Positions 2,759-59,236 of a DNA stretch of 64,000 bases are shown here, one piece after another. The notes below the pieces were generated by a model. The model saw only the letters and a list, made by a program, of their open reading frames with translations, searched no databases and was not told where the DNA came from. Both the position numbers and the translations under genes were made by a program. Every line of letters begins with the position of its first letter. Within the stretch, counting starts at the first letter, position 1. The stretch is from Chthoniobacterales bacterium (GTDB taxonomy: Bacteria; Verrucomicrobiota; Verrucomicrobiia; Chthoniobacterales; UBA6821): contig JAIEQF010000008.1 of the NCBI GenBank assembly GCA_019747895.1, positions 13,501 to 77,500 on the forward strand, read 5' to 3'.

Positions 2759-2762
2759 GAGA

Positions 2763-2955
2763 CAGGTTGCAGCATTTCAGGTTACAGGTTACAGCTTATA
2801 AAAGACTACAAAAACAGATAGCGGCTTTTTAGATTATCAAATAGCGATGAAACAAAAAGTGTCTCTTTGTTTTTAAATGATTTTAGCCTGTAAACTCCAA
2901 CCTACGACCTGTACCCTGAAATGCTGTACCCTGAAATGCTGTAATCTGTAACCTG
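2763..2955. repeat. Inverted heptamer-arm cassette (CAGGTT(A/G) family), no cargo gene
   Basis: Left CAGGTTGCAGCATTTCAGGTTACAGGTTACAG at 2763-2794; right ...CTGAAATGCTGTAATCTGTAACCTG at 2885-2955; AT-rich spacer. Confidence 0.8.
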
Positions 2956-2961
2956 TTTCTC

Positions 2962-4191: not shown

Positions 4192-4279
4192 CCACAAAAG
4201 AACACAAAGATCACAAAAAAAAGAATTTCGCTTATTCTATCGTTTTTTCTTTTGTGCTCTTTGTGTTCTTTTGTGGCTA
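4189..4279. repeat. Inverted 9-mer-arm cassette (GCCACAAAG family)
   Basis: TAGCCACAAAAGAACACAAAGATCACAAAA paired with TTTTGTGCTCTTTGTGTTCTTTTGTGGCTA between convergent lysC and pyk. Confidence 0.85.
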
Positions 4280-4294
4280 TTTCTTTTTTTCGCT

Positions 4295-5707: not shown

Positions 5708-5856
5708 ATGAGAAATGGTGAAGTTGAGGAGGTTGTTTCGCAAAAGTTGAAAGATTGAAAGAGGAATTTATAATTTGTGTCAGGCTTTCACAAAAGAAAG
5801 TGGTCAGAAAGAATGCCGTAGAAAGGAGAGGGAAGCAAGATTCTCTTTTTAATATG

Positions 5857-7026: not shown

Positions 7027-7184
7027 GCTACGAGCAATGCATCATAGACGTAGTTGGTTCGTTAAGTAACTCAATTTTTAATAATATTCTAATAATATGG
7101 AGCCTTGTGTTTTTAATTATTGAAAGAGGAGACAATTTAATTAGCATCGAGCCTCTCAGAATTAGAATTTCTCCCCTTTGACTC

Positions 7185-9560: not shown

Positions 9561-9749
9561 AGTCCGTTCAGAAAATGACAGAGTCATTTTTGAACAGACT
9601 CAGGCTACAGGTTGCAGACTACAGGCTAGAGTTACTTGAAGAAAAAATCACGATTTTTTGAATCCGCTCTTTGTCATGGGAGATCATTTTTATAAGTGAT
9701 CAACTTTTAAAATTTTCTACGAACTGCGAACTATCAACTACGAACTGGC
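9561..9749. repeat. Hairpin followed by two heptamer arms from different families
   Basis: AGTCCGTTCAGAAAATGACAGAGTCATTTTTGAACAGACT at 9561-9600; CAGGCTACAGGTTGCAGACTACAGG at 9601-9625; CGAACTGCGAACTATCAACTACGAACTGGC at 9720-9749. Confidence 0.7.
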
Positions 9750-9766
9750 GTTGTGCAACAACGCCA

Positions 9767-11014: not shown

Positions 11015-11142
11015 AGAAAGATAATAAAAGGGCATTCACAGGATAGAAGAGAAAAGAAAATTTGTCAGCTCTATATCGAAGATTTCTTTTCAAGAAGCTG
11101 TGTTGTTCTTGCTGTAACCTGCAACCTGTTGTCTGTCGAGAG

Positions 11143-11232: not shown

Positions 11233-11313
11233 AATAGCCATAAAAGCACGCAAAGAACACAAAAAAAGAAAGAAGTTTTTTCTTTGTGATCTTTGCGTGC
11301 TTTTGTGGCTATT
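11233..11313. repeat. Inverted 9-mer-arm cassette (GCCACAAAG family)
   Basis: AATAGCCATAAAAGCACGCAAAGAACACAAA paired with TTTGTGATCTTTGCGTGCTTTTGTGGCTATT. Confidence 0.85.
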
Positions 11314-11648: not shown

Positions 11649-11751
11649 AGAATTAGATTATTGGTTACAGCTTAAAGACTACAGGAAAAAATATTCTAAT
11701 TTTTAAGAATAAGGTTTTTCAAAGTTCAAGGGTCACAACAAACAATGAGTT

Positions 11752-14130
11752 TTAGATCTGATCTGATGGCTTCAATAGTTCCTTACGGACTGTGGTCGCA
11801 ATTTTTTGTGCTTCATTTTTTATCTGAAGACGATCAATTATTGACTTGCAGTTTCTGATAGCATGGTAGGCAGCACTTTCTAGCTTGCCTCGAAGTTGAG
11901 CTGTCTTCATTTTGGCCGCGTCTTCATTTGTAACAGCTCTCTCAGCCGCCTTTCGAGCGGCAAAAAGAGTTGCATCTATAACGCTTAGTCCAGGAATTAA
12001 TTTTCCCTTATTATTCACTTTTTCTTTTTGAGATTCGTAAAAATCTTTCATCACTTCCTCTGAGATTTTTTCTTTTTTCTTTGGTAAAAATTTTTCTATC
12101 ACCCTTGTAACAATAAGAGCTCCTTCTATTTTTGCTTCATCAGGGGTTGCCATTTTAGAGGCCTTAATAACATGATAGGCAGCAGAGAGCAATTCGGTAC
12201 GAAGATCATGATAACTATTATCAGCGGTTAATTCCTCGCGGGTTTGTGGACGCTGCTCTCCATTTAAATAAGCTCTTTCAGCCGCCCTTTCAGCAGCCTT
12301 GAGGATTGCATTCCAAGGATCTAGCCCTGCGATTTTTTCCCCCGCCTCATTGATTTTTGGTTGTTGAGCATTTTTAAAATCGTCTAGTTCTTCTTGAGAG
12401 AGAGTCCTTTCACTTTTTTTTGGCCAAACTTCATTGAGTATTTTTGTAGCAATGGGATTTGCTATAAATTCAGCTTCACGTCGTTTCTCCACTCCCAGTT
12501 TCTTAAGAATAGGACAAGCTTCCGATAAAAGTTTAGAACGACACTGGTCTCTTGTACCTCTCCATTGATCTTTAATTTTTGGAGCGATTAATCTTAGTTC
12601 TTCTTCTATAATCGTTTGACGTGCAAGATTGCTTCCTAATTGTTTGCTTTCTCTTTGAAAACGATCACGCAAATTTTTTGTTTCGGGGGAAATTTGTTCA
12701 TTGATAGTTGAGGAAAAAAATTCTTCCATGATAGCGGTTGCTATAGCAGACATTTTCAATTTTGCATCTATGGAAGAAAATCCAAATGCCCTAAGATTCT
12801 TATAAAGAGCATCCTCAATAGGCTTACGATCCTTCACTTTATTGCGATTTTTTGGATCTTCCTTAAAAAGCCTAGCACAAACAATTCTTCCTTCACCCTC
12901 TGTCACAATATTAATAGCATGGTTCTTGGATTCTCCTTCGCTGAGACCTTGAGCTCGCAATAATTGAGTGATAAGAGTCAATTTTTGATCCAAACTCCCG
13001 GTTTCACCACTTGGAAGTTCCATAACTTTTTTTAAAATAGCAGCTCGTATCTCTGGATCTAATTTTACTATCTTAACTCTTTTATTAGGTTCTGCTTTTA
13101 TTTCATTTTCAGAAGCACTTACCTCAGGGTCAGATTCCCAAAAACCCTCACGAACCTCTAGAGTAGGATCAAAAGACTCTTTTTCAAACGTAAAATCTTC
13201 TATTTTTTCATTTGAAAATGGGCTTTCATTCAAATCAGTTGGTATTATTTGGCTTTCAGCTTGACGTTTTGTAGACCTACGAGCATTAGAAGGTAAAGAA
13301 GGCCATGAATCAGGATTAACAGAAGTTATTGAATGTCCACCCTCAAAATTTCCTGTTTTTTTAGTTACTGTATCCCCTTGATTAAGGGGATCCGTTGGGT
13401 TATTAAAATCAAATCCAAGATCGAAATCTGAACCATCATCATTATCAGGACGGTGTGGAAAATTATTTTGAAAGGAAGAAGGTAATAAAGAGAAACCATC
13501 CATAAGAAAATTTGGGTTTTTAAATAATAGGGAAGGGTCATTCAACTGGCTTAGCCTATCCGCAATACAAATTAAGTATTGCTCTTGTACAAGTTTTTTT
13601 TTTTCTTTTTCTATTAGAAGAATATATTTGACCAAGCTTGAGATGTATTTTTGGTGATTTATTGTGATATTAAGAAATTTTTCTTTTTCTGCTGGAGTTT
13701 GAAAACTATCAATTAATAAAGCACCTTTGCGTTTATGCCAAAAATCTTCCAAAATCTTTTGCAGTATAGTAAGCCTATCTAAAACATTCTTATTTTTGTC
13801 ATTGAAAGAAAATGACGAGCATTGCGTGATCTGTTCTTGCCAACGTTGTATGATGGACGCTGCTTTGGCAAGATCAGCATCAAGGGGGGGGGCTAATTGT
13901 TCCAACTCAGTCTGCTTTTTTTCCTGATTATAAGAACTTGTTTTTTGTAATGTAGAATCTATAGCTGTACATTCGGTTCTAGGAAAATTTTCACCATCTC
14001 CAAACTCATGATCTCGCTCTGATGGGGATTGGAAAATTTTTTTTTCTACTTGTTTTCCTATAGGGCCTCCCTGAAGTTGAGAAAGTAACAAAGTAAAAAC
14101 GACTGTTGTGCCGGATAAATACTTGTTCAT
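11752..14130 (-). CDS. Hypothetical secreted protein, 792 aa, with C-terminal ~110-aa tandem repeats
   Basis: Signal-peptide-like N-terminus, AT-rich coding, duplicated GL...AA(E/R)(R/K)AAERA...LR..L.SAAYH.I motif. Confidence 0.8.
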   Translation of the reverse strand: MNKYLSGTTVVFTLLLSQLQGGPIGKQVEKKIFQSPSERDHEFGDGENFPRTECTAIDSTLQKTSSYNQEKKQTELEQLAPPLDADLAKAASIIQRWQEQITQCSSFSFNDKNKNVLDRLTILQKILEDFWHKRKGALLIDSFQTPAEKEKFLNITINHQKYISSLVKYILLIEKEKKKLVQEQYLICIADRLSQLNDPSLLFKNPNFLMDGFSLLPSSFQNNFPHRPDNDDGSDFDLGFDFNNPTDPLNQGDTVTKKTGNFEGGHSITSVNPDSWPSLPSNARRSTKRQAESQIIPTDLNESPFSNEKIEDFTFEKESFDPTLEVREGFWESDPEVSASENEIKAEPNKRVKIVKLDPEIRAAILKKVMELPSGETGSLDQKLTLITQLLRAQGLSEGESKNHAINIVTEGEGRIVCARLFKEDPKNRNKVKDRKPIEDALYKNLRAFGFSSIDAKLKMSAIATAIMEEFFSSTINEQISPETKNLRDRFQRESKQLGSNLARQTIIEEELRLIAPKIKDQWRGTRDQCRSKLLSEACPILKKLGVEKRREAEFIANPIATKILNEVWPKKSERTLSQEELDDFKNAQQPKINEAGEKIAGLDPWNAILKAAERAAERAYLNGEQRPQTREELTADNSYHDLRTELLSAAYHVIKASKMATPDEAKIEGALIVTRVIEKFLPKKKEKISEEVMKDFYESQKEKVNNKGKLIPGLSVIDATLFAARKAAERAVTNEDAAKMKTAQLRGKLESAAYHAIRNCKSIIDRLQIKNEAQKIATTVRKELLKPSDQI

Positions 14131-14140
14131 TATTAATCAG

Positions 14141-14899
14141 TTACTTTCCCAAATACCCATCTCGAATTTTAGGATGAGCTAAAAGTTCCTGACCACTCCC
14201 TGAGAGGGTGATTTGGCCAAGCTCTAGCAAGTAGGCATGATCAGCATAGCGGAGCGCTAAGTTGGCATTTTGTTCCACCAGAAGAATGGACATTCCTTCT
14301 GCATGAATAGCGCGCAGGATTTTAAAAATTTCTTGAACCAAAATAGGAGAGAGCCCCATGGAAGGTTCGTCCAAGAGGAGAAGACGAGGGCGGGTCATGA
14401 GCGCGCGTGCCACTGCTAACATCTGCTGCTCTCCTCCGGATAAAGTTCCCGCAATTTGTTTTGTTCTCTCCTCCAGACGAGGGAAGAGGTGATACATCCG
14501 ATCTAAATCTTGTTTAAAAACATTTCCATCGCGCGTGTTCCAGGCCCCTAATTTTAAATTTTCGAGTACGGTAAGATTTCCAAAAATGCTGCGACCTTCA
14601 GGAACGAGGTTTAAACCTAAATGAACGCGCTGTTCGGAAGGAAGAGGATCGATGGAACGGCCTTCGAATAAAACGGTCCCGCGCGCTGGAAGCTCTCCGG
14701 CAATGGCTCGGAGCGTCGATGACTTCCCAGCCCCATTAGCCCCAATCAAAGCGACAAAGCCTCCCGAAGGAACTTCTAGTGAGATCCCGCGCACAGCATG
14801 AACTTCGCCGTAGGAGACTTCCAAATTTGAAATAGAAAGAGAAGCAGGAAGAGTATTCACAGGGATGGAAGCGATGGAAGGGATAAAAGAAATTTTCAC
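14141..14899 (-). CDS. livF: Branched-chain amino acid ABC transporter ATP-binding protein (alternative GTG start at 14860)
   Basis: GANGAGKSS Walker A, VPEGR, LSGGEQQMLA, LLLDEPSMGL, LLVEQN. Confidence 0.93.
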   Translation of the reverse strand: MKISFIPSIASIPVNTLPASLSISNLEVSYGEVHAVRGISLEVPSGGFVALIGANGAGKSSTLRAIAGELPARGTVLFEGRSIDPLPSEQRVHLGLNLVPEGRSIFGNLTVLENLKLGAWNTRDGNVFKQDLDRMYHLFPRLEERTKQIAGTLSGGEQQMLAVARALMTRPRLLLLDEPSMGLSPILVQEIFKILRAIHAEGMSILLVEQNANLALRYADHAYLLELGQITLSGSGQELLAHPKIRDGYLGK

Positions 14900-15023
14900 A
14901 AAAGTGAAATAATTTTTTTGAGAATATCGTCAAATGTTTTTGCGAGATAGTTAAAAAAGCTAAAAGCTAGAATATAAAATTATTTTTGTCTTTATCCCTT
15001 CCATCGCTTCTATCCCTGTGAAT
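14855..15023. repeat. Inverted 9-mer-arm cassette (GGGATGGAA family)
   Basis: 33-bp inverted repeat with one mismatch, 14855-14887 versus 14991-15023. Confidence 0.85.
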
Positions 15024-15025
15024 TT

Positions 15026-15805
15026 TCAGCCTTCCGTTCCCAAATAAGCCTCGATCACGCGTTGATTGCTTTTAATTTCACTCGGTGATCCTTCGGCAAT
15101 GAGCGATCCAAAATCGAGCACCAGGAGGCGTTGGCAGAGTTCCATGACAAAGCCCATGTGATGTTCAATGAGGATGAAGGTGGATGAAAATTCACGTTGC
15201 ACCCAACGTAAGAGATCCAAAACCTCTGCCATCTCGTGTTCATTCATCCCTGCAACTGGTTCATCGAGTAGCAGCAATTTTGGATTGAGGGCTAAGGCCC
15301 GAGCAATTTCCAGACGTCGTTGAAATCCATAGGAAAGGCTTCCTGCTGGCTGTTGCGCTACATCAGCCATGCCCAGCATTCCTAGCAATTCAAGAGCTGC
15401 TTTGTTGGATCCACTTTCTTGCTGGCGCGCAAAGGGGGTGCGCAAGAGCGCTCCGAGTGGCGTGTAGCTCAAACGTGCATCGTAAGCGATGCGGACATTT
15501 TCCAAAACACTCAGTTGTTTGAAGAGGCGAATGTTTTGAAAAGTGCGCGCAATGCCCTGGCGTGCAATCCAAGCAGGCGAACAACCATGAATCGCCTTCT
15601 CTTGCCAAAAAATACTGCCGCTAGTCGGATGATAAAAACCAGTGAGCAAGTTAAACAAGGTTGTTTTTCCTGCGCCATTAGGACCAATGACTCCGAGGCA
15701 TTCTTGCGGATGCACATCAAAAGAGACATCTGCTAAGCTCTGACGTCCGCCAAAACTTTTACTAAGATTAATCGTTTGTAAAATGGGAGAAGGAGAATTA
15801 GCCAC
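15026..15805 (-). CDS. livG: Branched-chain amino acid ABC transporter ATP-binding protein (start uncertain)
   Basis: GPNGAGKTT, RTFQNIRLF, LSYGFQRRLEIARALA, LLLDEP, IEHHM, VIEAYLG. Confidence 0.93.
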   Translation of the reverse strand: MANSPSPILQTINLSKSFGGRQSLADVSFDVHPQECLGVIGPNGAGKTTLFNLLTGFYHPTSGSIFWQEKAIHGCSPAWIARQGIARTFQNIRLFKQLSVLENVRIAYDARLSYTPLGALLRTPFARQQESGSNKAALELLGMLGMADVAQQPAGSLSYGFQRRLEIARALALNPKLLLLDEPVAGMNEHEMAEVLDLLRWVQREFSSTFILIEHHMGFVMELCQRLLVLDFGSLIAEGSPSEIKSNQRVIEAYLGTEG

Positions 15806-15895
15806 AAAAAATAGAGAAAAAGAGGAGAATAGCCACAAAAGAGCACAAAGAGCACAAAAAAAGAAAAATTAATTCTTTGTGGTCTTTTGTGGCTA
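15799..15895. repeat. Inverted 9-mer-arm cassette (GCCACAAAG family) with a duplicated left end
   Basis: TAGCCACAAAA at 15799 and 15830, GAGCACAAAGAGCACAAA, right arm CTTTGTGGTCTTTTGTGGCTA at 15875-15895. Confidence 0.8.
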
Positions 15896-16849
15896 ATTAT
15901 TTTTATTCTTATACCCACTAGGCTTCAGCCATCTCCACTCGCGGAATCCCATGATTCCACGTGGCCGGAAGAGCATCAGAAGAACCAGGAGGAGCGGCAT
16001 AACAACCATTCTCCAGACTCCTAGTGGTTGAAGGAGCTGATTGAGAACAGTAAAAACTCCCGCACCCAAGAAAGATCCTGAAAGGGAAGCAACACCTCCG
16101 AGGTAGACCATCACCAAAATATCGGTTGATTTTAAAATGTCAAAAGAGCTCGGATTAATAAATTGAATTTGATGGGCAAAAAGAGCTCCAGCAACTCCGG
16201 CAAAAAAAGAGGAGACAATGAAAGCAATCATTTTTGCTCTCCGTGTAGAGACGCCCATGGCCTCTGCCGCAATTTCATCTTCGCGAATGGCTTCGATGCT
16301 CCGACCAAATTTGGAATAGACAAGATTGCGAATCAACCAAAAGGAAAGCAGGAAAAAAAGAAACGCCCACGGTAGCGTCGTTAATCTTGGAATGCCAAGA
16401 AAACCACGAGGGCCGCCAACGTAGGGGATATTTTCTAATCCTGATTTCACAATCATGAGAAAAGCCAGCGTGATGATCGCAAGATAATCACCTCGTGTTT
16501 TAAAAGAAAGAAAGGCAAGGGGAACACCGACAAGCGAGGCCACAGCGCCTCCAACTAAGACGGCACAAGGAAAGAGAAGCCACGGCGGCAATCCAGGAAG
16601 CAAGCGGACGGTAACAATGGCTGAACTGTAAGCACCTAGCGCCATAAAAGCAGCGTGTCCTACGGAGAATTCGCCCATGTAACCATTCACGAGATTGAGG
16701 CTCAGTGCAAGAATGGCATTGATGAGGAGTGTGACAAGAATGAAAATCAAGTAATCGTTCAGGCAGTGAGGCAGGATGAAGGCAGCAGCGACGCTGAAAA
16801 TAAAAAATAAAATTCGTAGTTGGCAGTTGGTAGTTCGTAAAAAATTCAT
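15893..16849 (-). CDS. livM: Branched-chain amino acid ABC transporter permease
   Basis: SLNLVNGYMGEFSVGHAAF, RGDYLAIITLAF, AIREDEIAAEAMGV, RPRGIMG. Confidence 0.92.
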   Translation of the reverse strand: MNFLRTTNCQLRILFFIFSVAAAFILPHCLNDYLIFILVTLLINAILALSLNLVNGYMGEFSVGHAAFMALGAYSSAIVTVRLLPGLPPWLLFPCAVLVGGAVASLVGVPLAFLSFKTRGDYLAIITLAFLMIVKSGLENIPYVGGPRGFLGIPRLTTLPWAFLFFLLSFWLIRNLVYSKFGRSIEAIREDEIAAEAMGVSTRRAKMIAFIVSSFFAGVAGALFAHQIQFINPSSFDILKSTDILVMVYLGGVASLSGSFLGAGVFTVLNQLLQPLGVWRMVVMPLLLVLLMLFRPRGIMGFREWRWLKPSGYKNKNN

Positions 16850-16895
16850 AGAACATTGACTCCTATAGAAACTTTGGTTGAAGTGAAATAAAGCT

Positions 16896-17771
16896 TCAGA
16901 CTTTCTGAATAGGAGGCTGCCCTAGGATTCCATAGGGCTTGATAATCAAAATCAGCAGTAACAAAGAATAGGCAATGAGGTCACGATAGGTCGAAGGGAG
17001 AAGAGTGACGCTAATAATTTCGGTTGCTCCCAAAATATATCCGCCAAGAACAGCGCCACGCATGTTTCCAATGCCTCCGATTACCGCTGCCACAAAGGCT
17101 TTCCAGCCGATCAAAATTCCCATCGAAGAAGAAATCACAGGATAGGCAAGAGCGTAGAGCAGGCCTGCAGAGCCACCAAGAGCAGCGCCAAGCGCAAAGG
17201 TCAGCGAAATGATTCTGTTCGCTGGAATTCCTAAAAGTGGAACCATCGCTCGATCAAATGAAAGAGCTCGCATCGCGATACCAAAGCGAGTTCTCCGAAT
17301 GATGAGATCTAGCAACACCATCAAAAGAATAGAGATGCTGATGATTGTGAGTTGCAGCGAAGAGATGGTGACACCACCGATGTAATAAGAAGTGTTGACC
17401 AAGAGCGTTGGCATATGACGTGGATAAGGACTAAACCCGAGCGTGACATTTTCAATGATGAGACCACATCCGAGAGCAGTGATGATGGCCGAAACTCGAG
17501 GCGCTTTGCGAATGGGCCGATAGGCAAAGCGTTCGATTAAGGCACCGAGAAGTCCGATGACCGCCATCGTCACGATAAGGGCTATCCAAAACGGCACACG
17601 AACCACGGACTCCAAGATGAGTGCCACAAAAGCTCCGAGCATGAAGAGATCTCCATGAGCAAAATTAATCATCGTGAGCACGCCATAAACAAGGCTGTAT
17701 CCAAGTGCAATGAGGGCGTAGATCGACCCAAGCTGGAGGGCATTGATGGTTTGTTGTGCAAAGTAGTTCAT
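16896..17771 (-). CDS. livH: Branched-chain amino acid ABC transporter permease
   Basis: GSIYALIALGYSLVYGVLTMINFAHG, KAFVAAVIGGIG, KPYGILG. Confidence 0.93.
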   Translation of the reverse strand: MNYFAQQTINALQLGSIYALIALGYSLVYGVLTMINFAHGDLFMLGAFVALILESVVRVPFWIALIVTMAVIGLLGALIERFAYRPIRKAPRVSAIITALGCGLIIENVTLGFSPYPRHMPTLLVNTSYYIGGVTISSLQLTIISISILLMVLLDLIIRRTRFGIAMRALSFDRAMVPLLGIPANRIISLTFALGAALGGSAGLLYALAYPVISSSMGILIGWKAFVAAVIGGIGNMRGAVLGGYILGATEIISVTLLPSTYRDLIAYSLLLLILIIKPYGILGQPPIQKV

Positions 17772-17781
17772 AAGCAGGTTG

Positions 17782-18702
17782 CAGCTTTGCAGGTTACAGG
17801 TTGCAGGAAAAATTCACAAGGATGGAAGGCAAAAAAGGCTGTAGGCTATAGCCTCTATTCATCTGCAACTAAAGATCATCTTCGAACTCTAACCAATATC
17901 TCTCCTCACTTCCTTGTATGGAAGAATCATAATAAGAGCCAGCATTAGAACCAAAAAGTTGTTGAAGGAACAAGTAATATTCAGGTTGTTTTTCTTGAAT
18001 ATCTTGAAGCAAGTGAGGCTCGCGATTGAGATCTTGACCAAAAAGATAGGTGGTGGCAGTGACAGCAAAAAATTCCCTTTGATTCCTTAAACAGTAGTGA
18101 TCCAGAGTAGGATAACCGAAATAATCATCTAACACCCAATTATAACAACGCCGATTAACAGCATCTTGATAATAGTTTTTGATCGTTTGATTATTAAAAC
18201 CATCTGGCAAACGCTGATCATGAAAAGCGTGCAGCAATTCATGCAGTAATGCTGTCGCATTAAGGTTGCCGTTATTTATAGCTATGTTCAGGATGATACC
18301 ATTTCCCTCTCCCTGCTGGTATAATCCTTCGATGCCTGTAGCAGCACCAGCAGCAGGAGTATGATTGATGACCTTGATAGAAATACTTTGAAAAAATGTT
18401 AGAACTTCTGGAGACAATCCAAGATTATAAAGAAGATCGATCTCTCGTTTTATGGAACTGTTTGCTTGCGGCAAGTAGGGAACATTCAGTACTTGAGCTT
18501 CATTGGCCTGAAATCCACGATAACTAAATGTGACTGAGTCTTGTTGGGTGGTCTCCGCTAAAAGCGCATGCCCGCTAATAAAAAAAATCGAAAATAGGAG
18601 AGAAAAAAATTTGTGCATGGGAAATTTTGAGATGCAGAAAAGTAATGCAGTTTCAAAATTTAGCAGCAATTTTTTGCCTGCAGCCTGTAACCTGAAAGGC
18701 TG
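17782..18702. mobile_element. Heptamer-arm cassette enclosing a cargo gene
   Basis: 26-bp inverted arms at 17782-17807 and 18677-18702 (23/26 match) bracket the metallopeptidase gene. Confidence 0.65.
17869..18618 (-). CDS. Secreted zincin-type metallopeptidase-like protein
   Basis: Signal peptide MHKFFSLLFSIFFISGHALLA, HEXXH motif LLHELLHAFH, downstream NQREFFA third-ligand-like motif. Confidence 0.75.
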   Translation of the reverse strand: MHKFFSLLFSIFFISGHALLAETTQQDSVTFSYRGFQANEAQVLNVPYLPQANSSIKREIDLLYNLGLSPEVLTFFQSISIKVINHTPAAGAATGIEGLYQQGEGNGIILNIAINNGNLNATALLHELLHAFHDQRLPDGFNNQTIKNYYQDAVNRRCYNWVLDDYFGYPTLDHYCLRNQREFFAVTATTYLFGQDLNREPHLLQDIQEKQPEYYLFLQQLFGSNAGSYYDSSIQGSEERYWLEFEDDL

Positions 18703-18726
18703 TCCAAAAAAATTATTTTTTTTGGA

Positions 18727-19887
18727 CTATGGTTCCACCGTCGTCACATACCCAAACGCTCCATCCTTAACAGTGAGGATCACGATGCTTTTCTTCGGAT
18801 CATGACTTCCTGGTTCGTAAATAAAGTTTCCTGTGATTCCTGAGAAATGCTCGACTTGAGCCATCGCATCACGGATCGCAGTCCGATCAGATTTTCCTGC
18901 TTTGATGATGGCTTCTGATAAAATGCCCATCGTGTCATATGTTAATGCTGCAATGTCATCTGGCAGTTGACCAAATTTGGCCTGATATTCTGTAATGAAA
19001 TTCTTTACTTGAGGTGCATCTGATTGAGTCGAAAAATGGTTAGAAAGGAAGGAGCCATTGAGACGATGCCCTGAATCAAGCTTCAACATTTCAGGCGTGC
19101 TCCAAGAATTTCCTCCTAGAAAAATAGCAGTGATGCCTAGGCGTCGTGCCTGTTCAGCAATGAGGGGAGCATCATTGTAATAAGCTGGCAAAAAGAGAAC
19201 GTCAGGGTTGGTCGCTTTTATTTTTGTTAATTGAGCACTGAAATCTCGATCACCTGTGCTGTATGTTTCTGAAGCAACAATTTTTCCTCCATCTGCAGTG
19301 AAGGCATTTTTAAAATAGCGAGCAGCGCTAGTGGGATATTCGCTGGAGGTGTCATAGAGCATGGCAGCTTTTTTAAGATGAAGCTGGCGAGTTGCAAATT
19401 GAGCGAGCGCGGGAATTTCAACAGCATCGGTAAAACAACCACGGAAGATATTTTTCTTAAATGTTCCTGTTTTAGAATTCAGCGTGGTGTTGGGATTAGT
19501 CGACCAAGGAGAAAACATGAGGCAATTGAGACTCTCTGCAATCTCTGCCGCTGGAATAGCACAGGAGCTAATGTTCGGCCCTACCATCGCCAGGATATTT
19601 TGCTGAGAGATCAGGCGTTGAGCCACCGCTGCCGCTTGGTCAGGCTTAGCTCCATTGTCGCCAACAATGAGTGAAATGGGCATCTTTACACCACCAACAT
19701 CGAGGCCTCCTTGCTGATTGATGTGCTCTACAAAAAGTTTTGCAGCATTGACACACGAGGCTCCTACAGCGGGAACTTCTCCGGTTAATTCGGCATTGAT
19801 TCCAATTTTCAGAACTTTTTTGTTAGAAGAACAAGCGCTGAAGAGCAAGCTCAAGACCAATAGTGGAAGAAGCAGGTTTTTTTTCAT
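18727..19887 (-). CDS. livK: Branched-chain amino acid ABC transporter substrate-binding lipoprotein (LivK/LivJ family)
   Basis: Lipobox FSAC, KIGINAELTG, DRDFSAQLTKIK, operon context. Confidence 0.88.
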   Translation of the reverse strand: MKKNLLLPLLVLSLLFSACSSNKKVLKIGINAELTGEVPAVGASCVNAAKLFVEHINQQGGLDVGGVKMPISLIVGDNGAKPDQAAAVAQRLISQQNILAMVGPNISSCAIPAAEIAESLNCLMFSPWSTNPNTTLNSKTGTFKKNIFRGCFTDAVEIPALAQFATRQLHLKKAAMLYDTSSEYPTSAARYFKNAFTADGGKIVASETYSTGDRDFSAQLTKIKATNPDVLFLPAYYNDAPLIAEQARRLGITAIFLGGNSWSTPEMLKLDSGHRLNGSFLSNHFSTQSDAPQVKNFITEYQAKFGQLPDDIAALTYDTMGILSEAIIKAGKSDRTAIRDAMAQVEHFSGITGNFIYEPGSHDPKKSIVILTVKDGAFGYVTTVEP

Positions 19888-20028
19888 ATACAATTTTAGC
19901 AATTGTGCCGCGCATTTAATAAGAATTAGGTCACTCTTGTCCAAAATAAATTTAAAAAGATTGATTTCTCTTTTGATGAAATCCGATAGCAGCTAGGAAT
20001 AGTCTTGGTTGAGCGCTGCTTCGCAGCT

Positions 20029-20118
20029 GGTGAAGGGTTGAGAGGTTGAAAGGAGGCTCAAAGTCATGTGACTCTCGTTTTACAAAAGAAGTCCTTTCAA
20101 CCCCTCAACTTTTCAACC
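20029..20118. repeat. Inverted 8-mer-arm cassette (GTTGAAAG family)
   Basis: GGTGAAGG GTTGAGAG GTTGAAAG paired with CTTTCAAC CCCTCAAC TTTTCAACC. Confidence 0.7.
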
Positions 20119-20222
20119 TGGAGCAGGACTTTCTGGATAGTTGTTGGGTTTCTATTTTCAAATTTAATTTCTTATTCTGGACAGCAATGGAATTAGGTCT
20201 TGAAATGACGAGAAGAAAAAAT

Positions 20223-20283
20223 GTTTATAGATTTATAGGTTTAAATTTTCTTCTTTTATTTATAAACCTGTAAACTAGTAAAC
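20223..20283. repeat. Inverted 8-mer-arm cassette (GTTTATAG family)
   Basis: GTTTATAG ATTTATAG GTTTA paired with TATAAAC CTGTAAAC TAGTAAAC. Confidence 0.65.
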
Positions 20284-20334
20284 TTTCTTCGAAATCAAAT
20301 TCCATTTTCTTTTTTTACAGAATCTCCTAAACAG

Positions 20335-20793
20335 TTAAAAGTCTTTCACCGAAGCGGAAGATTTGCGTTTTAAGATAAAGGAGAGGGGAGAAACCACATC
20401 ATTCGTGGTATCTATTTTTTTCTTCAGGTCAAACGTGACTGGTTCAATCCGTTCCTCCAAGAAAGAAGAATAATTTAAAGGCGTTTCTAAATGTTCCGAA
20501 AAAAGAGGCGAGGCATTCATTCCTCGCTGATTATTTAACCTAGGAGAGCGCAAGATTAAGACGCTCAGAAAAACAGCAATGGCTGTGACACTGGCATAGG
20601 CTACTACTGGAAGGCGAAAATGAGAAAAAAAGGTTGCCAATTGATCTTCCATTTTTTCAAAAAAAGAGGGTTGCATCGCGATAAGAGATTGTCGTCGATG
20701 AAATTCATCGATGAAACGCTCCACAGCATCTGCTGAAGGTAACTCGCAGGGGCTAGCAGCTCGTATTAAATTTTGAAGTGCTTGGTCATCCAT
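20335..20793 (-). CDS. Probable anti-sigma factor, single TM helix
   Basis: Directly downstream of the ECF sigma factor; FIDEFHRRQ N-terminal segment followed by one TM helix. Confidence 0.7.
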   Translation of the reverse strand: MDDQALQNLIRAASPCELPSADAVERFIDEFHRRQSLIAMQPSFFEKMEDQLATFFSHFRLPVVAYASVTAIAVFLSVLILRSPRLNNQRGMNASPLFSEHLETPLNYSSFLEERIEPVTFDLKKKIDTTNDVVSPLSFILKRKSSASVKDF

Positions 20794-21415: not shown

Positions 21416-21483
21416 TGAGTTAAACTCTACTTTGTTTTTCTCTGAAGGGAAAACATTTTTTTACTCAGTCACGACAATGAGAG

Positions 21484-23469
21484 TCATGACAGATCATCAA
21501 CAATATCTTCCAGGTTTCTTGATGGAACTTGAATGCCTGCTGCTTGGGCTTGTTGGTCTGCTTGATCAAGAATAGTATGTGCGTCCTTAAGAAAAGATAG
21601 TCCGTCACTATGCACTCTTTGCGGTTCTGAAAAATCTTCCGCTGCTTCATAAAGAAGATGACAGGCATGCTTATACTGACTTGCTAGTTCTTGATTTCCC
21701 GCTTGCTCAGCAGCTTTAATGCTGTCGATAACTAGAAGAGCTTCTTTAGCTGTACAAGCAGTCTGATAAAAAAAATGTCCATAATAATTTAGGACCTGGC
21801 CCCTTATGCATCCATCCGGGAATATCCTCCTGTAGCTCTCCGCTATTGTTTTCAAAAAATAAGCTTTCGTAGGATAATATAGAGGATCGTTATTTAAGGC
21901 TTGATTGCTTTCTAATAAATATCCTTCTTGCTCAGGAGTTGATTTCGAAAACTTGCTAAGAGCTTCCTCATAATAAGTGGATGATAAGCTAAGAAGTTTG
22001 TGGGTGTTGAGCTGAGGTCTATAAAAGTCAAAAGAAACGTCATCAGGAAAATCCCATTCTTCTTTAAAAGGTGTCTCTATTATAATAGCAGGTTTGCTTT
22101 CTACACCCTGTTTTACCCTGATCAGGGCAGCACGACATTGATTTTCTAGAGGATCTCTTCTGTCATTAGTCAATTCGATCTGGGATAAAAAATTTAAAAC
22201 AGAGTGTTGAAGATTTATGCGGGGGAAAGGAGAAAAGTTACTAGCAACATTCATAGTAAAACGTGCGGCTTGCTCCAAAACAGCTTGCTTCTTAGGATCT
22301 GTAACTTGTTGAGCTTGATGGCGAAGCATTCGAGGAAAAAGACGAGCGCTTTGTCGCAGAGCATCCAATCTTGCCATTTTTGCTTCTCTTTGCTTTTGGA
22401 AAAATTCCGGAGTGCCTATTTCATATTTCTTTTGATCAAGAAGGCTTTTGGCATAATCACGATTTGCTTTTAAAAGATCATCAAACTGAGCTCGCTCTCC
22501 TTGAGGTAAAAAAGATAATTTTCCAATCACCCCATCAAGGATTCTGGCATTTTGTTCAAGATGCTCCAAGGTATTGTTAACGGCATCTATGGCCCTGAAC
22601 TTATCAAGATAAGGATTGAAGCCTTGCTTTGTCACCGTAGGTGGTTGATCCACAAATTGGAGATACTGCGTACGATAAGATTCAGCAGCCTCTTGTAATT
22701 CAAGGATAACTTTTTTTCCCTTTTCTTCCAAATCTTGGTAACTCGAAGAAGGACTGCTTTCGACTTCAGAGGTAATAGTAGTTTTTTTTGTTAAAAAGCC
22801 TGCTATTAATTTAAATAGTTCTGGACCCTTGAGCTTGTTTAATAAATTTTCACAAAAGCGCGTTTTCTCTTTGTTTAGTTGCTTTGCTAATTCAAGATCT
22901 CTCTCTTCTAATTTATTTTCTAATTGAAGAGCCTGCTTGCAAAATGTCCTGAGTGCACTTTCAGTAGGTTTAGAAGATAAGCCAAACCATGTTGATTCAA
23001 GAGGAAACCATTTTTCAAGGGTGGCCTCAACATCAATGAGTGGGGGCTTTCCATCATAACAGGAAGCACGATGGGTACTAATAAATCCGTGTAAAGATGC
23101 TTCTAACGCTCCATCGATGTTTCTGATCTTATCAAGAAGTGCATCATGTTGTCTTGCTGCGCTTGTTATGAGGAAGTTCTCTTTTGAAAAAAGATCAGTA
23201 ACAGCCATAAAAGGTCGTAAGGATTGATTTCCTTCAGAAGGATTTTCATGTCCACCTTCTTTTATAGAAGCGATGCTGTCGCCTCGGGGATTACCATCAG
23301 GATTGGCTTCCTTGGGCCCTGGCTCTGTAATCTCTCTTTGTCTTTGACTATCTGCCGCACCAGAGGAATATTTTTCTTCAGAGGATGGCTCTTTTTCTTC
23401 AATAGGCCACGCAACAAGGCCATGAAGGGTTAAAATAAAAGTGATTAAGGTAATCGAAAAAGACTTCAT
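21484..23469 (-). CDS. Hypothetical secreted protein, 661 aa
   Basis: Signal peptide MKSFSITLITFILTLHGLVA, low-complexity linker, helical charged body; no family recognised. Confidence 0.78.
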   Translation of the reverse strand: MKSFSITLITFILTLHGLVAWPIEEKEPSSEEKYSSGAADSQRQREITEPGPKEANPDGNPRGDSIASIKEGGHENPSEGNQSLRPFMAVTDLFSKENFLITSAARQHDALLDKIRNIDGALEASLHGFISTHRASCYDGKPPLIDVEATLEKWFPLESTWFGLSSKPTESALRTFCKQALQLENKLEERDLELAKQLNKEKTRFCENLLNKLKGPELFKLIAGFLTKKTTITSEVESSPSSSYQDLEEKGKKVILELQEAAESYRTQYLQFVDQPPTVTKQGFNPYLDKFRAIDAVNNTLEHLEQNARILDGVIGKLSFLPQGERAQFDDLLKANRDYAKSLLDQKKYEIGTPEFFQKQREAKMARLDALRQSARLFPRMLRHQAQQVTDPKKQAVLEQAARFTMNVASNFSPFPRINLQHSVLNFLSQIELTNDRRDPLENQCRAALIRVKQGVESKPAIIIETPFKEEWDFPDDVSFDFYRPQLNTHKLLSLSSTYYEEALSKFSKSTPEQEGYLLESNQALNNDPLYYPTKAYFLKTIAESYRRIFPDGCIRGQVLNYYGHFFYQTACTAKEALLVIDSIKAAEQAGNQELASQYKHACHLLYEAAEDFSEPQRVHSDGLSFLKDAHTILDQADQQAQAAGIQVPSRNLEDIVDDLS

Positions 23470-23532
23470 GCCATGTTTGGGGTGGAGGGGACAAGAAATT
23501 ATAATGCAACAATTTTATGAGTCAAAATCTAT

Positions 23533-24441
23533 TTAGACTTCAGAAACTAAAACCGGCAATCTTTGCTTTTCAATGCTAAACTTGATCGGTAAGTGAGAAA
23601 CCATTTCTCCATCTAATTCAAAGGGGATTTGAAAACGAGGGTCTTGAGAAATGATGGCAAGTTCTTTAGTTTTGAAGTATTGGACCGTGCGAAGAGATCT
23701 TGGCTGGCCTACGAGTAGGGCAGGAAGGTTGCCGAGTAATTCCCAAAAGTGGTGGTGCTTAAAAAGTAAAACATGGAGATGCCCATCATCGAGAGCAGCC
23801 TCTGGAAAAAAAGGAAAAGCTCCTCCGTAAAATTTTCCATTTCCTAGGAGAATTGAAGTCCCTTTCTTCTCACCATTCTCCTCACAACGCAACAAAAGAG
23901 TCGGTTGTTTTTTTAAAAGCACTTTTAAGAAAGAAAAGAAATAGCTCACTGGTCCAAAAGCCATTTTAAATGCGCTACTTGTTTCCTCAAGAACCTCTGC
24001 ATCTAAGCCGATACCTGCTAGCTGAACAAAGAAGCGTTGTTGCTGCGTTTCAAGGTAAGTGGCACAGGCAAGGTCCACATGGCGAGAACGATTTTCCAAA
24101 ATTACTTCCCAAGCTGCTTCAAGAGAATCGAGTGGGAGTTTTAATTCGGAAGCAAAAACATTCATCGTGCCGAGAGGCAAAACCCCAAGTGTAACGGCCT
24201 GATCGGCAGGAGAGCTCGAAACAATCCCATTCACGACCTCATTGATCAAACCATCGCCACCAGCAGCAACAATTTTTTTGTATCCTTGGGCAATAGCCTC
24301 TCGAGCTAATTCCTCAGCCTCTCTTGGCCGCGTGGTAAACCTGACAACGGGATTACCAGGAAGCTCCTGCAGCACCTCTACAAAATTCCCAGCACGACCA
24401 CTTCGCGCAGCTGGATTGAGAATGACAAAAGGAGAGTCCAT
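23533..24441 (-). CDS. Diacylglycerol kinase family (YegS/DagK-like) lipid kinase
   Basis: ILNPAARSG, AAGGDG, LPLGTMNVFA, GIGLDA, NGKFYGG, ELDGE. Confidence 0.9.
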   Translation of the reverse strand: MDSPFVILNPAARSGRAGNFVEVLQELPGNPVVRFTTRPREAEELAREAIAQGYKKIVAAGGDGLINEVVNGIVSSSPADQAVTLGVLPLGTMNVFASELKLPLDSLEAAWEVILENRSRHVDLACATYLETQQQRFFVQLAGIGLDAEVLEETSSAFKMAFGPVSYFFSFLKVLLKKQPTLLLRCEENGEKKGTSILLGNGKFYGGAFPFFPEAALDDGHLHVLLFKHHHFWELLGNLPALLVGQPRSLRTVQYFKTKELAIISQDPRFQIPFELDGEMVSHLPIKFSIEKQRLPVLVSEV

Positions 24442-24646: not shown

Positions 24647-24796
24647 AGTGATGAGTAATGGGTAATGAGTAGCTGGCGCAAACGACAAAATGCTACTTTA
24701 AGTTTGTTTTTAAAAAATAAAACCTAGCAAATAAGAATTTCTGAAAACTGATTATCGTTCGATCTAAAAAATGCTCATTACTCATTAGTCATTACT
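24647..24796. repeat. Inverted heptamer-arm cassette (AGTAATG family)
   Basis: AGTGATG AGTAATG GGTAATG AGT paired with GCTCATT ACTCATT AGTCATT ACT. Confidence 0.78.
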
Positions 24797-30173: not shown

Positions 30174-30193
30174 AGGTTTTTAAAGAAGAAAAA

Positions 30194-30384
30194 ATTGGCC
30201 ACAAAGAGCACAAAGAAATCAAAGAAAAACTAACAGATGTTATTTCTTAAAAAAGGAAACTATCTTCTTGTTTTTGTATGCTTTTTCCTGATGCTGAAGC
30301 ATCAGGAAAGGGAAAAACTCTTAAAAAGTGAATTTTGTTTTCTTTCAAAACTTCTTTGATTTCTTTGTGCTCTTTGTGGCCAAT
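30194..30384. repeat. Inverted 9-mer-arm cassette (GCCACAAAG family) with perfect 33-bp arms and a nested hairpin
   Basis: ATTGGCCACAAAGAGCACAAAGAAATCAAAGAA at 30194-30226 is the exact reverse complement of 30352-30384; inner stem TTTCCTGATGCT/AGCATCAGGAAA at 30284-30309. Confidence 0.88.
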
Positions 30385-30414
30385 CTCTTTTTTTACATTC
30401 TTTTGTAGCTATTT

Positions 30415-33068: not shown

Positions 33069-33096
33069 CGTCATTCCAACGTCTGCTGGAATGACG
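33069..33096. repeat. CGTC-tagged REP-like hairpin
   Basis: CGTCATTCCA-ACGTCTGC-TGGAATGACG. Confidence 0.7.
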
Positions 33097-36547: not shown

Positions 36548-36711
36548 CGTCATTCCTGCGGACGCAGGAATCCAGGAGGATGTCGATATAGAGTTGATGG
36601 TCCTATAAAATAAAGCTTCTGTTTTAGAAAATTTTTTTGAAGTTTTTTGATGGTTAGTTTTCGATTTTTGTGCAGATGGTCGCCTGGATTCCAGCGTCCG
36701 CTGGAATGACG
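36548..36711. repeat. Inverted pair of CGTC-tagged REP-like palindromes around an AT-rich spacer
   Basis: CGTCATTCCTGCGGACGCAGGAATCCAGG at 36548-36576 and CCTGGATTCCAGCGTCCGCTGGAATGACG at 36683-36711. Confidence 0.82.
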
Positions 36712-44848: not shown

Positions 44849-44963
44849 GTTGTTATAAGTCTCACTTCGATTTGATGAAGATCTACATAAAATAAAGAAA
44901 GAGCAAACTGTAATGTATTTTTTTTCCTGTAACCTGCAAGCTATAACCTGGTAGCCTAATCTC

Positions 44964-59233: not shown

Positions 59234-59236
59234 CTC

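What the first reader, a model, noticed from the sequence alone, without database searches (positions are those of the whole stretch)
17774..18702. A filled cassette: secreted HEXXH metallopeptidase between inverted heptamer arms inside the liv operon
Seen: CAGCTTTGCAGGTTACAGGTTGCAGG (17782-17807) and its inverted partner (18677-18702, 23/26 match) bracket an AT-rich gene with a signal peptide, HELLH and a distal EFFA motif. It is co-oriented with and splits livK from livH. The same arm family brackets only about 90 bp of AT-rich DNA at thrC-lysC. Inference: these arms can carry or capture genes and place them under a host operon's promoter. A protease upstream of an amino-acid importer could also be functionally coupled to it.
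Basis: partly seen in the sequence, partly recalled or inferred. Interest (0 to 1): 0.75.

Follow-up and report, generated by a model that had tools for sequence, protein, structure and literature searches.

The report
Peptidase gene inserted between junction repeats
A small secreted zinc protease gene has been added between two genes of an amino-acid transport operon in an uncultured soil or lake bacterium, and the inverted repeats around it belong to a repeat system that marks many gene boundaries in this genome, so they are not shown to be a gene-carrying vehicle.

Summary
The arms at 17782-17807 and 18677-18702 match 23/26 in inverted orientation. They bracket a 249-aa minus-strand ORF with a signal-peptide-like N-terminus, HELLH and REFFA, lying between livK and livH in the same orientation.

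The protein is a distant relative of Pro-Pro endopeptidases and anthrax-lethal-factor-type (M34) zincins, below Pfam cut-offs.

The two related genomes found (Verrucomicrobiota MAGs, LivK 92% and 83% identical) have livK next to livH (about 97 and 207 bp apart). They have no peptidase and no such arms, so the segment is a gain on this lineage.

The carrier reading is not shown:
- Seven arrays of this heptamer family in 64 kb follow one polarity rule: CAGGTTR-sense after a 3' end, TAACCTG-sense just before a start codon.
- Short orthologous versions sit at the same boundaries in a relative, so they change in place.
- A second pair brackets nuoD, which is syntenic in that relative.
- Two other lineage-specific genes were inserted without arms.
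- No transposase, integrase or target duplication was seen.

A 16-nt module is nevertheless shared only by the four arms at thrC-lysC and livK-livH, so those two elements are specifically related. Coupling of the peptidase to Liv is unsupported. Interest is moderate.

The parts
18727..19944 (-). livK-type periplasmic branched-chain amino-acid binding protein. This is the longest ORF; the ATG supported by the relatives is at 19887.
   Evidence: Pfam Peripla_BP_6, E 2.8e-60. 92% and 83% identical to L001 and L002. Start inferred from the alignment with the relatives.
18702..18727 (-). A/T-rich hairpin directly after the livK stop codon (TCCAAAAAAAA-TAA-TTTTTTTGGA).
   Evidence: Sequence. Inverted repeat 18702-18712 / 18717-18727. 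Paired in the RNA fold.
18672..18702 (-). Left arm. It reads CAGGTTR-sense on the coding strand (CAGCCTTTCAGGTTACAGGCTGCAGGCAAAAA) and lies after the livK 3' end.
   Evidence: (I9).
18619..18671 (-). Leader of the peptidase gene. It has no Shine-Dalgarno core and stays in frame with the livK stop codon, with no further stop.
   Evidence: Sequence. The 17 codons before the ATG are mirrored in the N-terminal extensions of homologues P0002 and P0003. No promoter-like site was scored.
17869..18618 (-). Gene for a 249-aa exported zinc metallopeptidase (HELLH 127-131, Y176, E183 in REFFAV).
   Evidence: Alignment A1: H127, E128, H131 and E183 are invariant in 12 of 12 sequences. PDB profile hit to PPEP-2 (6fpc), E 4.5e-4. 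AlphaFold2 mean pLDDT 73.8. Top Foldseek hits are lethal factor and PPEP-1/2/3. 1761 family representatives at E<=1e-3.
17830..17868 (-). 3' flank of the peptidase gene: palindrome AGGCTATAGCCT and ACAGCC followed by a T6 run. This is a possible weak terminator.
   Evidence: Sequence. Not scored by the terminator scan.
17812..17829 (-). CCTTCCATCCTTGTGAAT module. It belongs to the same family as the arms of the livG-livF junction element.
   Evidence: blastn-short matches to 14855-14871 and 15007-15026. The repeat finder pair I3.
17775..17812 (-). Right arm. It reads TAACCTG-sense on the coding strand and ends 3 nt before the livH ATG.
   Evidence: 93% identical over 28 nt to the thrC-side arm at 2763-2790.
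16896..17771 (-). livH-type permease, followed by livM (15893-16849), livG (15026-15838) and livF (14141-14899).
   Evidence: Pfam BPD_transp_2 and ABC_tran. Synteny with L001 and L002.
2759..2961 (+). Sister junction element between thrC and lysC with no ORF inside. Arms are at 2762-2798 and 2905-2956; the spacer is about 106 nt at 30% G+C.
   Evidence: (I11, I13). The RNA fold pairs the arms: -71.3 kcal/mol, z -6.3.
9595..9628 (+). Array of the same heptamer family, 35 nt after the stop of ORF 7185-9560.
11094..11135 (-). Array of the same family, 7 nt after the 3' end of tRNA-Met. A shorter orthologous version is present in L002.
44923..44950 (+). Array of the same family in TAACCTG-sense, ending 13 nt before the ATG of a short-chain dehydrogenase gene.

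Best explanation
The segment is a lineage-specific gene gain. A gene for a Sec-exported HExxH+E zinc endopeptidase of about 25 kDa now lies in the livK-livH junction of a Chthoniobacter-like Verrucomicrobiota genome. The enzyme belongs to an unnamed family between MEROPS M34 (Pro-Pro endopeptidases, lethal factor) and M90 (MtfA).

The two 'arms' are copies of a junction repeat. They are tandem CAGGTTR heptamers carrying a 16-nt module, CAGCNTTNCAGGNTAC. In this genome such arrays sit at cistron boundaries with a fixed polarity: CAGGTTR-sense just after a 3' end, and its complement TAACCTG-sense immediately before a start codon. The start-proximal position lies in leaders that lack Shine-Dalgarno sites.

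A co-directional junction that has both arrays looks like an inverted pair around an A+T-rich spacer. Here the spacer holds the peptidase gene.

Shown:
- the insertion;
- the arm family and its polarity;
- change of the arrays in place at orthologous sites;
- the catalytic motifs of the protein.

Inferred:
- the gene is read through from the liv promoter;
- in such a transcript the arms can pair into a duplex of about 30 bp that closes an 860-nt loop, a possible processing or insulation site;
- the enzyme is an exported endopeptidase unrelated to Liv function.
For: Insertion:
- L001 (about 90% nt identity) and L002 (about 77%) have livK-livH gaps of about 97 and 207 bp.
- tblastn finds no peptidase in them at E<=1e-5, and there is no CAGGTTRCAGG.
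- The identities give the tree ((window, L001), L002).
- The L001 and L002 junctions align with each other.

Polarity: 4 arrays lie after 3' ends (thrC, ORF 7185-9560, tRNA-Met, livK) and 3 end 3-13 nt before start codons (lysC, livH, a dehydrogenase). That is 7 of 7.

Change in place:
- The tRNA-Met-nuoD spacer aligns at 81% with L002, which has ATAGGTTTCAG where the window has ACAGGTTGCAGGTTACAGCA.
- At thrC-lysC, L002 has short arrays at both boundaries. The window has extra complementary modules in both arms.

Other points:
- Junction repeats are general here: 11 of 39 intergenic regions of 40 bp or more have an inverted repeat with arms of 16 nt or more. The livG-livF and livM-livG junctions carry other families.
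- Leaders: 2 of 49 ORF starts have a 4-nt SD core, and leader G content is 11.7% against 22.2% for the window.
- The arms pair in both the MFE and the centroid folds.
- Protein.
Against: - Arms and gene are both absent from the closest relative, so one event that brought both in is as economical as two events.
- The 16-nt module is confined to the thrC-lysC and livK-livH arms and is missing from L002's thrC-lysC junction. Some copying process between loci has therefore acted, and slippage in place does not explain it.
- The similarity of the right arm to the L001 livH leader is not significant (p about 0.06). It is therefore not shown that either liv arm predates the gene.
- Only two relatives and one 64-kb window were seen.
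- Of the four mismatches between the liv arms, two would be G-U pairs only on the antisense strand (worked by hand). This gives no support to selection on a sense-strand RNA stem.
- No expression data exist.
Confidence: 0.5

Rival explanations
1. Mobile cassette. The arms are terminal inverted repeats of a non-autonomous element, similar to a MITE or a mobile insertion cassette. It exists empty at thrC-lysC and loaded with the peptidase gene at livK-livH, is moved in trans by an enzyme encoded elsewhere, and lands between a stop and a start codon so that the cargo is read from the host operon.
For: - The arms are 31 nt and 87% complementary.
- The 16-nt module occurs only in the four arms of these two elements, 5 hits against 0.04 expected.
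- Arms and gene are absent together from 2 of 2 relatives.
- The gene has lower G+C than its neighbours.
- Inverted-repeat elements of about 160-200 bp differ between these genomes at several junctions, and L001 has a 168-bp one with perfect 34-nt arms inside a coding region. Elements of this architecture therefore do move in the lineage.
Against: - No target-site duplication is seen outside the arms.
- No transposase or integrase domain was found in 52 window proteins scanned.
- The peptidase has a single copy in the window.
- At thrC-lysC and at tRNA-Met-nuoD the arrays have shorter orthologues in L002. At thrC-lysC the extra module lies inside the old unit on one side and outside it on the other, which a single block insertion does not produce.
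- The polarity rule already predicts inverted pairs.
- The nuoD-bracketing pair is not a cassette.
- The window-specific genes h661 and hyp792 have no arms.
Confidence: 0.22
2. The peptidase is an old member of the liv operon that was lost in the relatives.
For: Homologues at 96, 79, 75, 57 and 49% identity exist in public protein sets, so the gene is not unique to one genome. Their genomic contexts could not be seen.
Against: - With the tree ((window, L001), L002), this needs two losses that each leave a short junction. Those junctions align with each other.
- The ORF's G+C is 38.8% against 44-49% for the liv genes.
Confidence: 0.05
3. Integron-type gene cassette with the arms acting as attC-like recombination sites.
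For: It is a promoter-less single ORF in the same orientation as the host operon, with imperfect inverted repeats nearby.
Against: - No integrase is found in the window.
- The repeats flank the ORF on both sides instead of forming one attC at its 3' end.
- The heptamers GTTACAG and GTTGCAG do not fit the GTTRRRY core, and CTGTAAC and CTGCAAC do not fit RYYYAAC. These core consensus sequences are recalled from memory; the comparison was made by eye.
Confidence: 0.02

Closest known systems
Pro-Pro endopeptidases PPEP-1/2/3 and the anthrax lethal factor protease domain (MEROPS M34; Pfam ATLF PF07737)
   Same: HExxH with a third zinc ligand Glu in an E-(F/Y)-F-A helix about 55 residues downstream, and a Tyr 7 residues before that Glu (Y176 here). 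It is a small exported protein. These are the best sequence-profile hit (6fpc, E 4.5e-4) and the best fold hits.
   Different: The window protein scores 14.7 bits against the 27.4-bit ATLF cut-off. Foldseek E-values are no better than 4e-3, and TM by target is 0.55 or less. Sequence identity is 13-21%. Distant family members have His where this protein has the Tyr. No substrate is known.
MtfA / peptidase M90 (PF06167)
   Same: There is a weak Pfam match over the HExxH...E half (E 1.2e-3). Some related clusters in the ESM Atlas carry M90 on 14-27% of members.
   Different: The score is below the cut-off (18.9 against 26.2 bits). From memory, MtfA is cytoplasmic, whereas this protein has an export signal.
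Heptamer direct repeats placed a few nucleotides before start codons (TAACTGA repeats of Beggiatoaceae, some Cyanobacteria and Bacteroidetes; MacGregor 2015, PMC4679880; abstract and section 13 read)
   Same: Tandem heptamers end a few nt before the ATG, in genes that lack a Shine-Dalgarno site. There is one G per unit, and many unrelated genes are affected.
   Different: The unit here is TAACCTG/CTGYAAC, and several other units are used in the same genome. The complement also occurs after 3' ends, so inverted pairs form. That paper reports one indirect repeat among 170 sets. The phylum is also different.
Transcribed intergenic inverted-repeat elements (Correia elements of Neisseria, ERIC of enterobacteria, REP/BIME). 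These are recalled from memory; no paper was read.
   Same: They are short elements with inverted ends inside operons and at gene ends, present or absent between close relatives, and able to fold in the mRNA. From memory, Correia hairpins are cut by RNase III.
   Different: The arms here are built from tandem heptamers, have orthologous short forms in relatives, and keep a fixed polarity to stop and start codons. No TA duplication was seen. One element holds a whole gene.
Mobile insertion cassettes (MIC231 of Bacillus cereus: IS231 ends around a passenger gene and no transposase). Recalled from memory.
   Same: Inverted ends lie around a single non-transposase gene. From memory, MIC231 also carries a peptidase gene.
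   Different: No cognate IS with the same ends, no target duplication and no second copy were found here.

Membership tests
MEROPS M34 / Pfam ATLF (lethal factor, Pro-Pro endopeptidases) | HExxH zinc-binding and catalytic motif | tested here: met
   HELLH at 127-131. H127, E128 and H131 are invariant in 12 of 12 aligned sequences.
MEROPS M34 / Pfam ATLF (lethal factor, Pro-Pro endopeptidases) | Third zinc ligand Glu in an ExFA helix downstream, with a Tyr 7 residues before it | tested here: met
   E183 in REFFAV is invariant. The family profile aligns its E-F-F-A with E-Y-F-A of PPEP-2, and its Tyr column with a Tyr of PPEP-2. Y176 is present in the window protein, but the column holds His in the six distant homologues.
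MEROPS M34 / Pfam ATLF (lethal factor, Pro-Pro endopeptidases) | Score at or above the Pfam gathering cut-off | tested here: not met
   14.7 bits against 27.4. Among 17 family representatives scanned, 2 reach the cut-off (P0015 at 27.5, P0158 at 33.7).
MEROPS M34 / Pfam ATLF (lethal factor, Pro-Pro endopeptidases) | Same fold as solved members | tested here: inconclusive
   The model has mean pLDDT 73.8. The top 37 Foldseek rows are all lethal factor or PPEP chains, but E is 4e-3 or worse, TM by query is 0.29-0.44 and TM by target is 0.55 or less.
Peptidase M90 (MtfA) | Score at or above the Pfam gathering cut-off | tested here: not met
   18.9 bits against 26.2, covering only the C-terminal half of the model.
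MITE / mobile insertion cassette | Terminal inverted repeats | tested here: met
   31 nt, 87% complementary.
MITE / mobile insertion cassette | Target-site duplication directly outside the repeats | tested here: not met
   The outer flanks are ...TTTTTTTGGA and ATGAAC..., with no direct repeat (by eye).
MITE / mobile insertion cassette | Several copies with the same ends, and a cognate element encoding the transposase | tested here: inconclusive
   There are two pairs with the 16-nt module in 64 kb. No transposase or integrase domain was found in 52 proteins scanned. The rest of the genome was not available.
MITE / mobile insertion cassette | Clean empty site in a relative | tested here: inconclusive
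   Relatives lack the segment, but the whole spacer differs and no exact boundary can be drawn.
Integron gene cassette | Integrase gene and an attC site with RYYYAAC / GTTRRRY cores (consensus recalled from memory) | tested here: not met
   No integrase was found. The heptamers do not fit the cores (by eye).
Start-codon-proximal heptamer repeats (TAACTGA type) | Tandem heptamers ending within a few nt of the start codon of genes without an SD site | tested here: met
   The arrays end 3, 5 and 13 nt before the ATGs of livH, lysC and the dehydrogenase gene. An SD core is present at 2 of 49 starts.
Start-codon-proximal heptamer repeats (TAACTGA type) | The unit is TAACTGA | tested here: not met
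   The units are TAACCTG, CAACCTG and TAGCCTG.

The most novel reading that the evidence does not exclude
The inverted heptamer-array pairs are a so far undescribed kind of cistron-boundary module in Shine-Dalgarno-poor Verrucomicrobiota. One array serves as the translation leader of the downstream gene. Its complement sits behind the upstream gene. The two arms are kept complementary: new modules appear in both arms at once, as at thrC-lysC. The A+T-rich spacer between them is the place where new genes for exported proteins are plugged into operons, or the whole unit moves with its cargo. In a read-through transcript the arms would close a duplex around the entire inserted cistron, so that it can be cut out or silenced without breaking the operon.
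Probability: 0.15. Interest if true: 0.75.

Novelty: new variant of a known kind. Interest (0 to 1): 0.45.

Why it matters
This is a dated, clean example of how a new exported-enzyme gene enters the middle of a conserved transport operon. The closest relative, at about 90% nucleotide identity, still has the uninterrupted junction.

The surroundings are the more interesting part. The genome has almost no Shine-Dalgarno sites. Its gene boundaries are marked by fast-changing tandem arrays whose two arms stay complementary. If these arrays act in translation start, transcript processing or gene insertion, they would describe a layer of operon organisation not yet studied in Verrucomicrobiota.

The peptidase adds a well-populated unnamed family (1761 representatives at 50% clustering) next to the Pro-Pro endopeptidases, with no known substrate.

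Tried and rejected
1. Homology of the liv arms to the junctions of the relatives. Local alignments of the two window spacers to the L001 and L002 junctions were not better than shuffles (p 0.056, 0.21, 0.23, 0.66). I therefore do not claim that either arm predates the gene.

2. A compensatory change between the AGTAATG arms (window 24647-24796) and the AGTAAAG arms (L001 188-372). Alignment showed the two elements are not orthologous; only the last 40 nt or so before the ATG align. The claim was dropped.

3. A shared core in the ~100-nt spacers of the inverted-repeat elements. Of 78 pairwise comparisons among 13 spacer or flank sequences, only 7 reached p<=0.02 against 100 shuffles each. None involved the flanks of the peptidase, and there is no common core.

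4. Rfam. Only the two tRNAs scored.

5. Promoter and terminator scans of 14000-20500. There were 6 and 6 sites against 8.6 and 7.4 expected, and none lay in the livK-peptidase or peptidase-livH spacers.

6. Plasmid and phage collections. There were 2 weak plasmid hits (28-31% identity, Methylobacteriaceae) and none in phages, so no mobile-element link was found.

7. NCBIfam gave nothing for the peptidase or for four neighbouring orphan ORFs.

8. Elhai et al. 2008, on very small mobile repeats in cyanobacterial heptamer arrays, is not held in the library. It is cited from memory only.

9. No complex prediction was run, because no binding claim is made.

10. Literature searches on heptamer or intergenic repeats in Verrucomicrobia listed no description of these arrays. 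That covers only the open-access library searched.
Full report
**What is there.**
All genes of the region lie on the minus strand:
- livK, 18727-19944. The ATG supported by the relatives is at 19887.
- A 249-aa ORF, ATG 18618 to stop 17869.
- livH (16896-17771), livM, livG and livF.

17782-17807 and the reverse complement of 18677-18702 match at 23 of 26 positions. The repeat finder extends them to 31 nt at 87% complementarity, with 859 nt between them.

The motif CAGGTTRCAGG (up to 1 mismatch) occurs 15 times in the window against 1.32 expected, so the repeat is real.

The ORF has 38.8% G+C, against 43.8% for the window and 44-49% for the liv genes.

**The protein.**
- Pfam gives no family at E<1e-3. 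The best matches are Peptidase_M90 (1.2e-3, 18.9 bits against a cut-off of 26.2) and ATLF (0.025, 14.7 bits against 27.4). NCBIfam gives nothing useful.
- A word-indexed search found 11 homologues: 96, 79, 75, 57 and 49% identical, then 31-36%.
- In the 12-sequence alignment, H127, E128, H131 and E183 (in REFFAV) are invariant, and all full-length members start with a hydrophobic segment.
- A profile of that alignment finds 1761 representatives at E<=1e-3 and 159 at E<=1e-30 among 1.84 billion cluster representatives. This is therefore a large unnamed family. Of 17 representatives scanned, 2 reach the ATLF cut-off and 1 reaches the M90 cut-off.
- Against PDB sequences, the profile's best hit is the Pro-Pro endopeptidase PPEP-2 (6fpc, E 4.5e-4). 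The alignment places HExxH on HExxH, EFFA on EYFA, and the family's Tyr column on a Tyr.
- The AlphaFold2 model has mean pLDDT 73.8. Its Foldseek hits are led by lethal factor and PPEP-1/2/3 chains. They are weak: E 4e-3 or worse, and TM by target 0.55 or less.
- The ESM Atlas lists look-alike clusters named 'hypothetical', some with ATLF or M90 on 13-27% of members, from Pseudomonadota, Planctomycetota and Verrucomicrobiota.

I read the protein as an exported zincin endopeptidase distantly allied to M34 and outside current family borders. There is no paralogue in the window.

**Relatives.**
- L001, a Verrucomicrobiia MAG: LivK 92% identical, about 90% nt identity.
- L002, an uncultured Chthoniobacter MAG: LivK 83% identical, about 77% nt identity.

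L001 and L002 are 73-78% identical to each other, which gives the tree ((window, L001), L002).

In both relatives livK is followed directly by livH, with gaps of about 97 and 207 bp. tblastn finds no peptidase in either locus, and the heptamer motif is absent. The two short junctions align with each other. The window's 955-bp junction is therefore derived, and one gain is more economical than two losses.

The whole spacer differs, so exact insertion boundaries cannot be drawn. The resemblance of the right arm to the L001 livH leader (TTTTTCCTTTAGCCTGT) is not significant (p 0.056).

**What the arms are.**
There are seven arrays of this family in the window.
- Four read CAGGTTR-sense on the coding strand shortly after a 3' end: thrC, ORF 7185-9560, tRNA-Met and livK.
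- Three read TAACCTG-sense and end 3-13 nt before a start codon: livH, lysC and a dehydrogenase at 44964.

With this rule, any co-directional junction that has both arrays is an inverted pair.

The arrays have orthologues in a relative:
- The tRNA-Met-nuoD spacer aligns at 81% with L002, which has about one and a half units where the window has three.
- At thrC-lysC, L002 has GAGAGGTTAC after the stop codon and CCTGTAG...AACCTGTAGC before the ATG.

The arrays are thus resident boundary features that grow and shrink in place.

The pair 9601/11112 brackets nuoD, which is syntenic in L002. Bracketing alone therefore does not make a cassette.

**The wider setting.**
- Only 2 of 49 ORF starts have a 4-nt Shine-Dalgarno core at -20 to -4 (starts taken from the longest ORFs). 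Leaders hold 11.7% G against 22.2% in the window.
- Many leaders carry other short tandem units.
- 11 of 39 intergenic regions of 40 bp or more hold an inverted repeat with arms of 16 nt or more, several with spacers of about 100-136 nt.
- Within the liv operon, the livG-livF junction has a GGATGGAAG-type pair (14846-15032) and the livM-livG junction has a CACAAAGA hairpin (15830-15895). Both junctions are only about 15-30 bp in L002.
- The same arm families occur at other junctions in the relatives. L001 has a 168-bp element with perfect 34-nt arms inserted in frame in a kinase-like gene.
- Between the window and L001, at least six junction differences occur in 6.4 kb. An element gain and a gene gain at one junction is therefore not an unlikely coincidence.
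- Two other window-specific genes, h661 (absent from both relatives) and hyp792 (absent from L002), sit at junctions without arms.
- No transposase or integrase domain was found in the 52 window proteins scanned.

The 16-nt module CAGCNTTNCAGGNTAC occurs five times in the window, against 0.04 expected. All five lie in the four arms of the thrC-lysC and livK-livH elements. It occurs nowhere in L001 or L002, including L002's thrC-lysC junction.

The two elements are therefore sisters. The module has been added to both arms at thrC-lysC since the split from L002, which calls for a copying process between arms and between loci.

At thrC-lysC the module lies inside the old unit on the left and outside the old array on the right. 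This does not fit one block insertion. It does fit correction between the arms of a quasi-palindrome (my inference).

Whether the peptidase came with the arms or landed between them is open.

**How it may work.**
No promoter-like or terminator-like site was scored in either spacer. Read-through from the liv promoter is therefore the simplest expectation, although an A/T hairpin follows livK and a palindrome plus T6 run follows the peptidase gene.

Folded as RNA, the thrC-lysC junction forms a long hairpin through its arms (-71.3 kcal/mol, z -6.3). The 976-nt livK-to-livH stretch pairs its two arms in both the MFE and the centroid structures (z -2.4). A duplex of about 30 bp of this kind could be a processing or insulation site. 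This is inference, and the mismatch pattern gives it no extra support.

Nothing links the enzyme to Liv. It is absent from 2 of 2 related liv operons, and its nearest solved relatives are sequence-specific endopeptidases.

**Comparison with what is known.**
- The start-proximal arrays resemble the TAACTGA heptamer repeats described a few nucleotides before start codons in Beggiatoaceae, Cyanobacteria and Bacteroidetes, where SD sites are rare (PMC4679880; abstract and section 13 read).
- From memory, the pairs resemble transcribed intergenic inverted-repeat elements such as Correia and ERIC.
- Also from memory, the cassette reading would resemble the mobile insertion cassettes of Bacillus cereus.
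- Three literature searches listed no description of such arrays in Verrucomicrobia within the open-access library.

**Left unchecked.**
- The rest of the source genome.
- The contexts of the peptidase homologues.
- Any metagenome or viral collection (closed).
- Signal-peptide prediction by a dedicated tool.
- All expression data.

Noticed in passing
window 21463-23544: A 661-aa ORF with a signal-peptide-like start and no Pfam family (21484-23469) is absent from both relatives at exactly this junction. The flanks carry a loose direct repeat (TGACTCATAAAATTG / TGACTGAGTAAAAAAATG) and no inverted arms.
   Followed up: partly
window 11661-14141: A 792-aa ORF (11752-14130; 36.7% G+C, no Pfam or NCBIfam family, signal-peptide-like start) lies between livF and a 108-aa gene. 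L002 has 28 bp there.
   Followed up: partly
window 5744-9766: About 4 kb holding an FGE-sulfatase-like gene (5857-7026) and a 791-aa orphan ORF (7185-9560). It separates nuoD from pyruvate kinase; in L002 these two genes are 145 bp apart.
   Followed up: no
window 4183-4285, 11233-11313, 15830-15895, 30186-30392, 38940-39002, 59140-59241: A second dispersed family of hairpins built from CACAAAGA-type 8-9-mers beginning TAGCCACAAA. They mostly lie right after stop codons. Spacers range from 1 to 125 nt.
   Followed up: no
window 14846-15032; L002 about 16795-16960: Inverted pair of GGATGGAAG-type arrays with a 103-nt spacer between livG and livF. The same arm family occurs after nuoD in L002, where livG-livF are only about 30 bp apart. 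A half copy (17812-17829) lies next to the right arm of the finding.
   Followed up: partly
L001 769-936: A 168-bp element with perfect 34-nt inverted ends and a 97-nt spacer sits in frame inside the diacylglycerol-kinase-like gene, adding about 55 residues relative to the window's copy.
   Followed up: partly
window 36548-36711 and 33069-33096; L001 5020-5176: Inverted-repeat family CGTCATTCC...GGAATCCAGG with spacers of about 101-106 nt, found at different junctions in the two genomes.
   Followed up: no
window 18619-18729: The livK stop codon TAG is in the same frame as the peptidase ORF, and the 36 codons between them contain no stop. TAG is an ordinary stop elsewhere in the window (frame worked out by hand).
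   Followed up: no
whole window: Only 2 of 49 ORF starts have a 4-nt Shine-Dalgarno core. Leaders are G-poor (11.7%), and many carry short tandem units such as CTAAACT, CAACTTT and TAAACCTA just before the ATG.
   Followed up: partly
window 19945-20334: About 400 bp between a 152-aa ORF and livK hold two small inverted pairs (GTTTATAG-type and GTTGAAAGG-type). In L001 and L002 the two genes abut.
   Followed up: no
window 61655-61697: A perfect 11-mer (TTTCGCGCCAC) repeated 3.9 times directly after a Fic-domain gene.
   Followed up: no
window 9767-11035: A NuoD-type (49-kDa subunit) gene stands alone next to tRNA-Met, with no other nuo genes nearby. L002 has the same arrangement.
   Followed up: no
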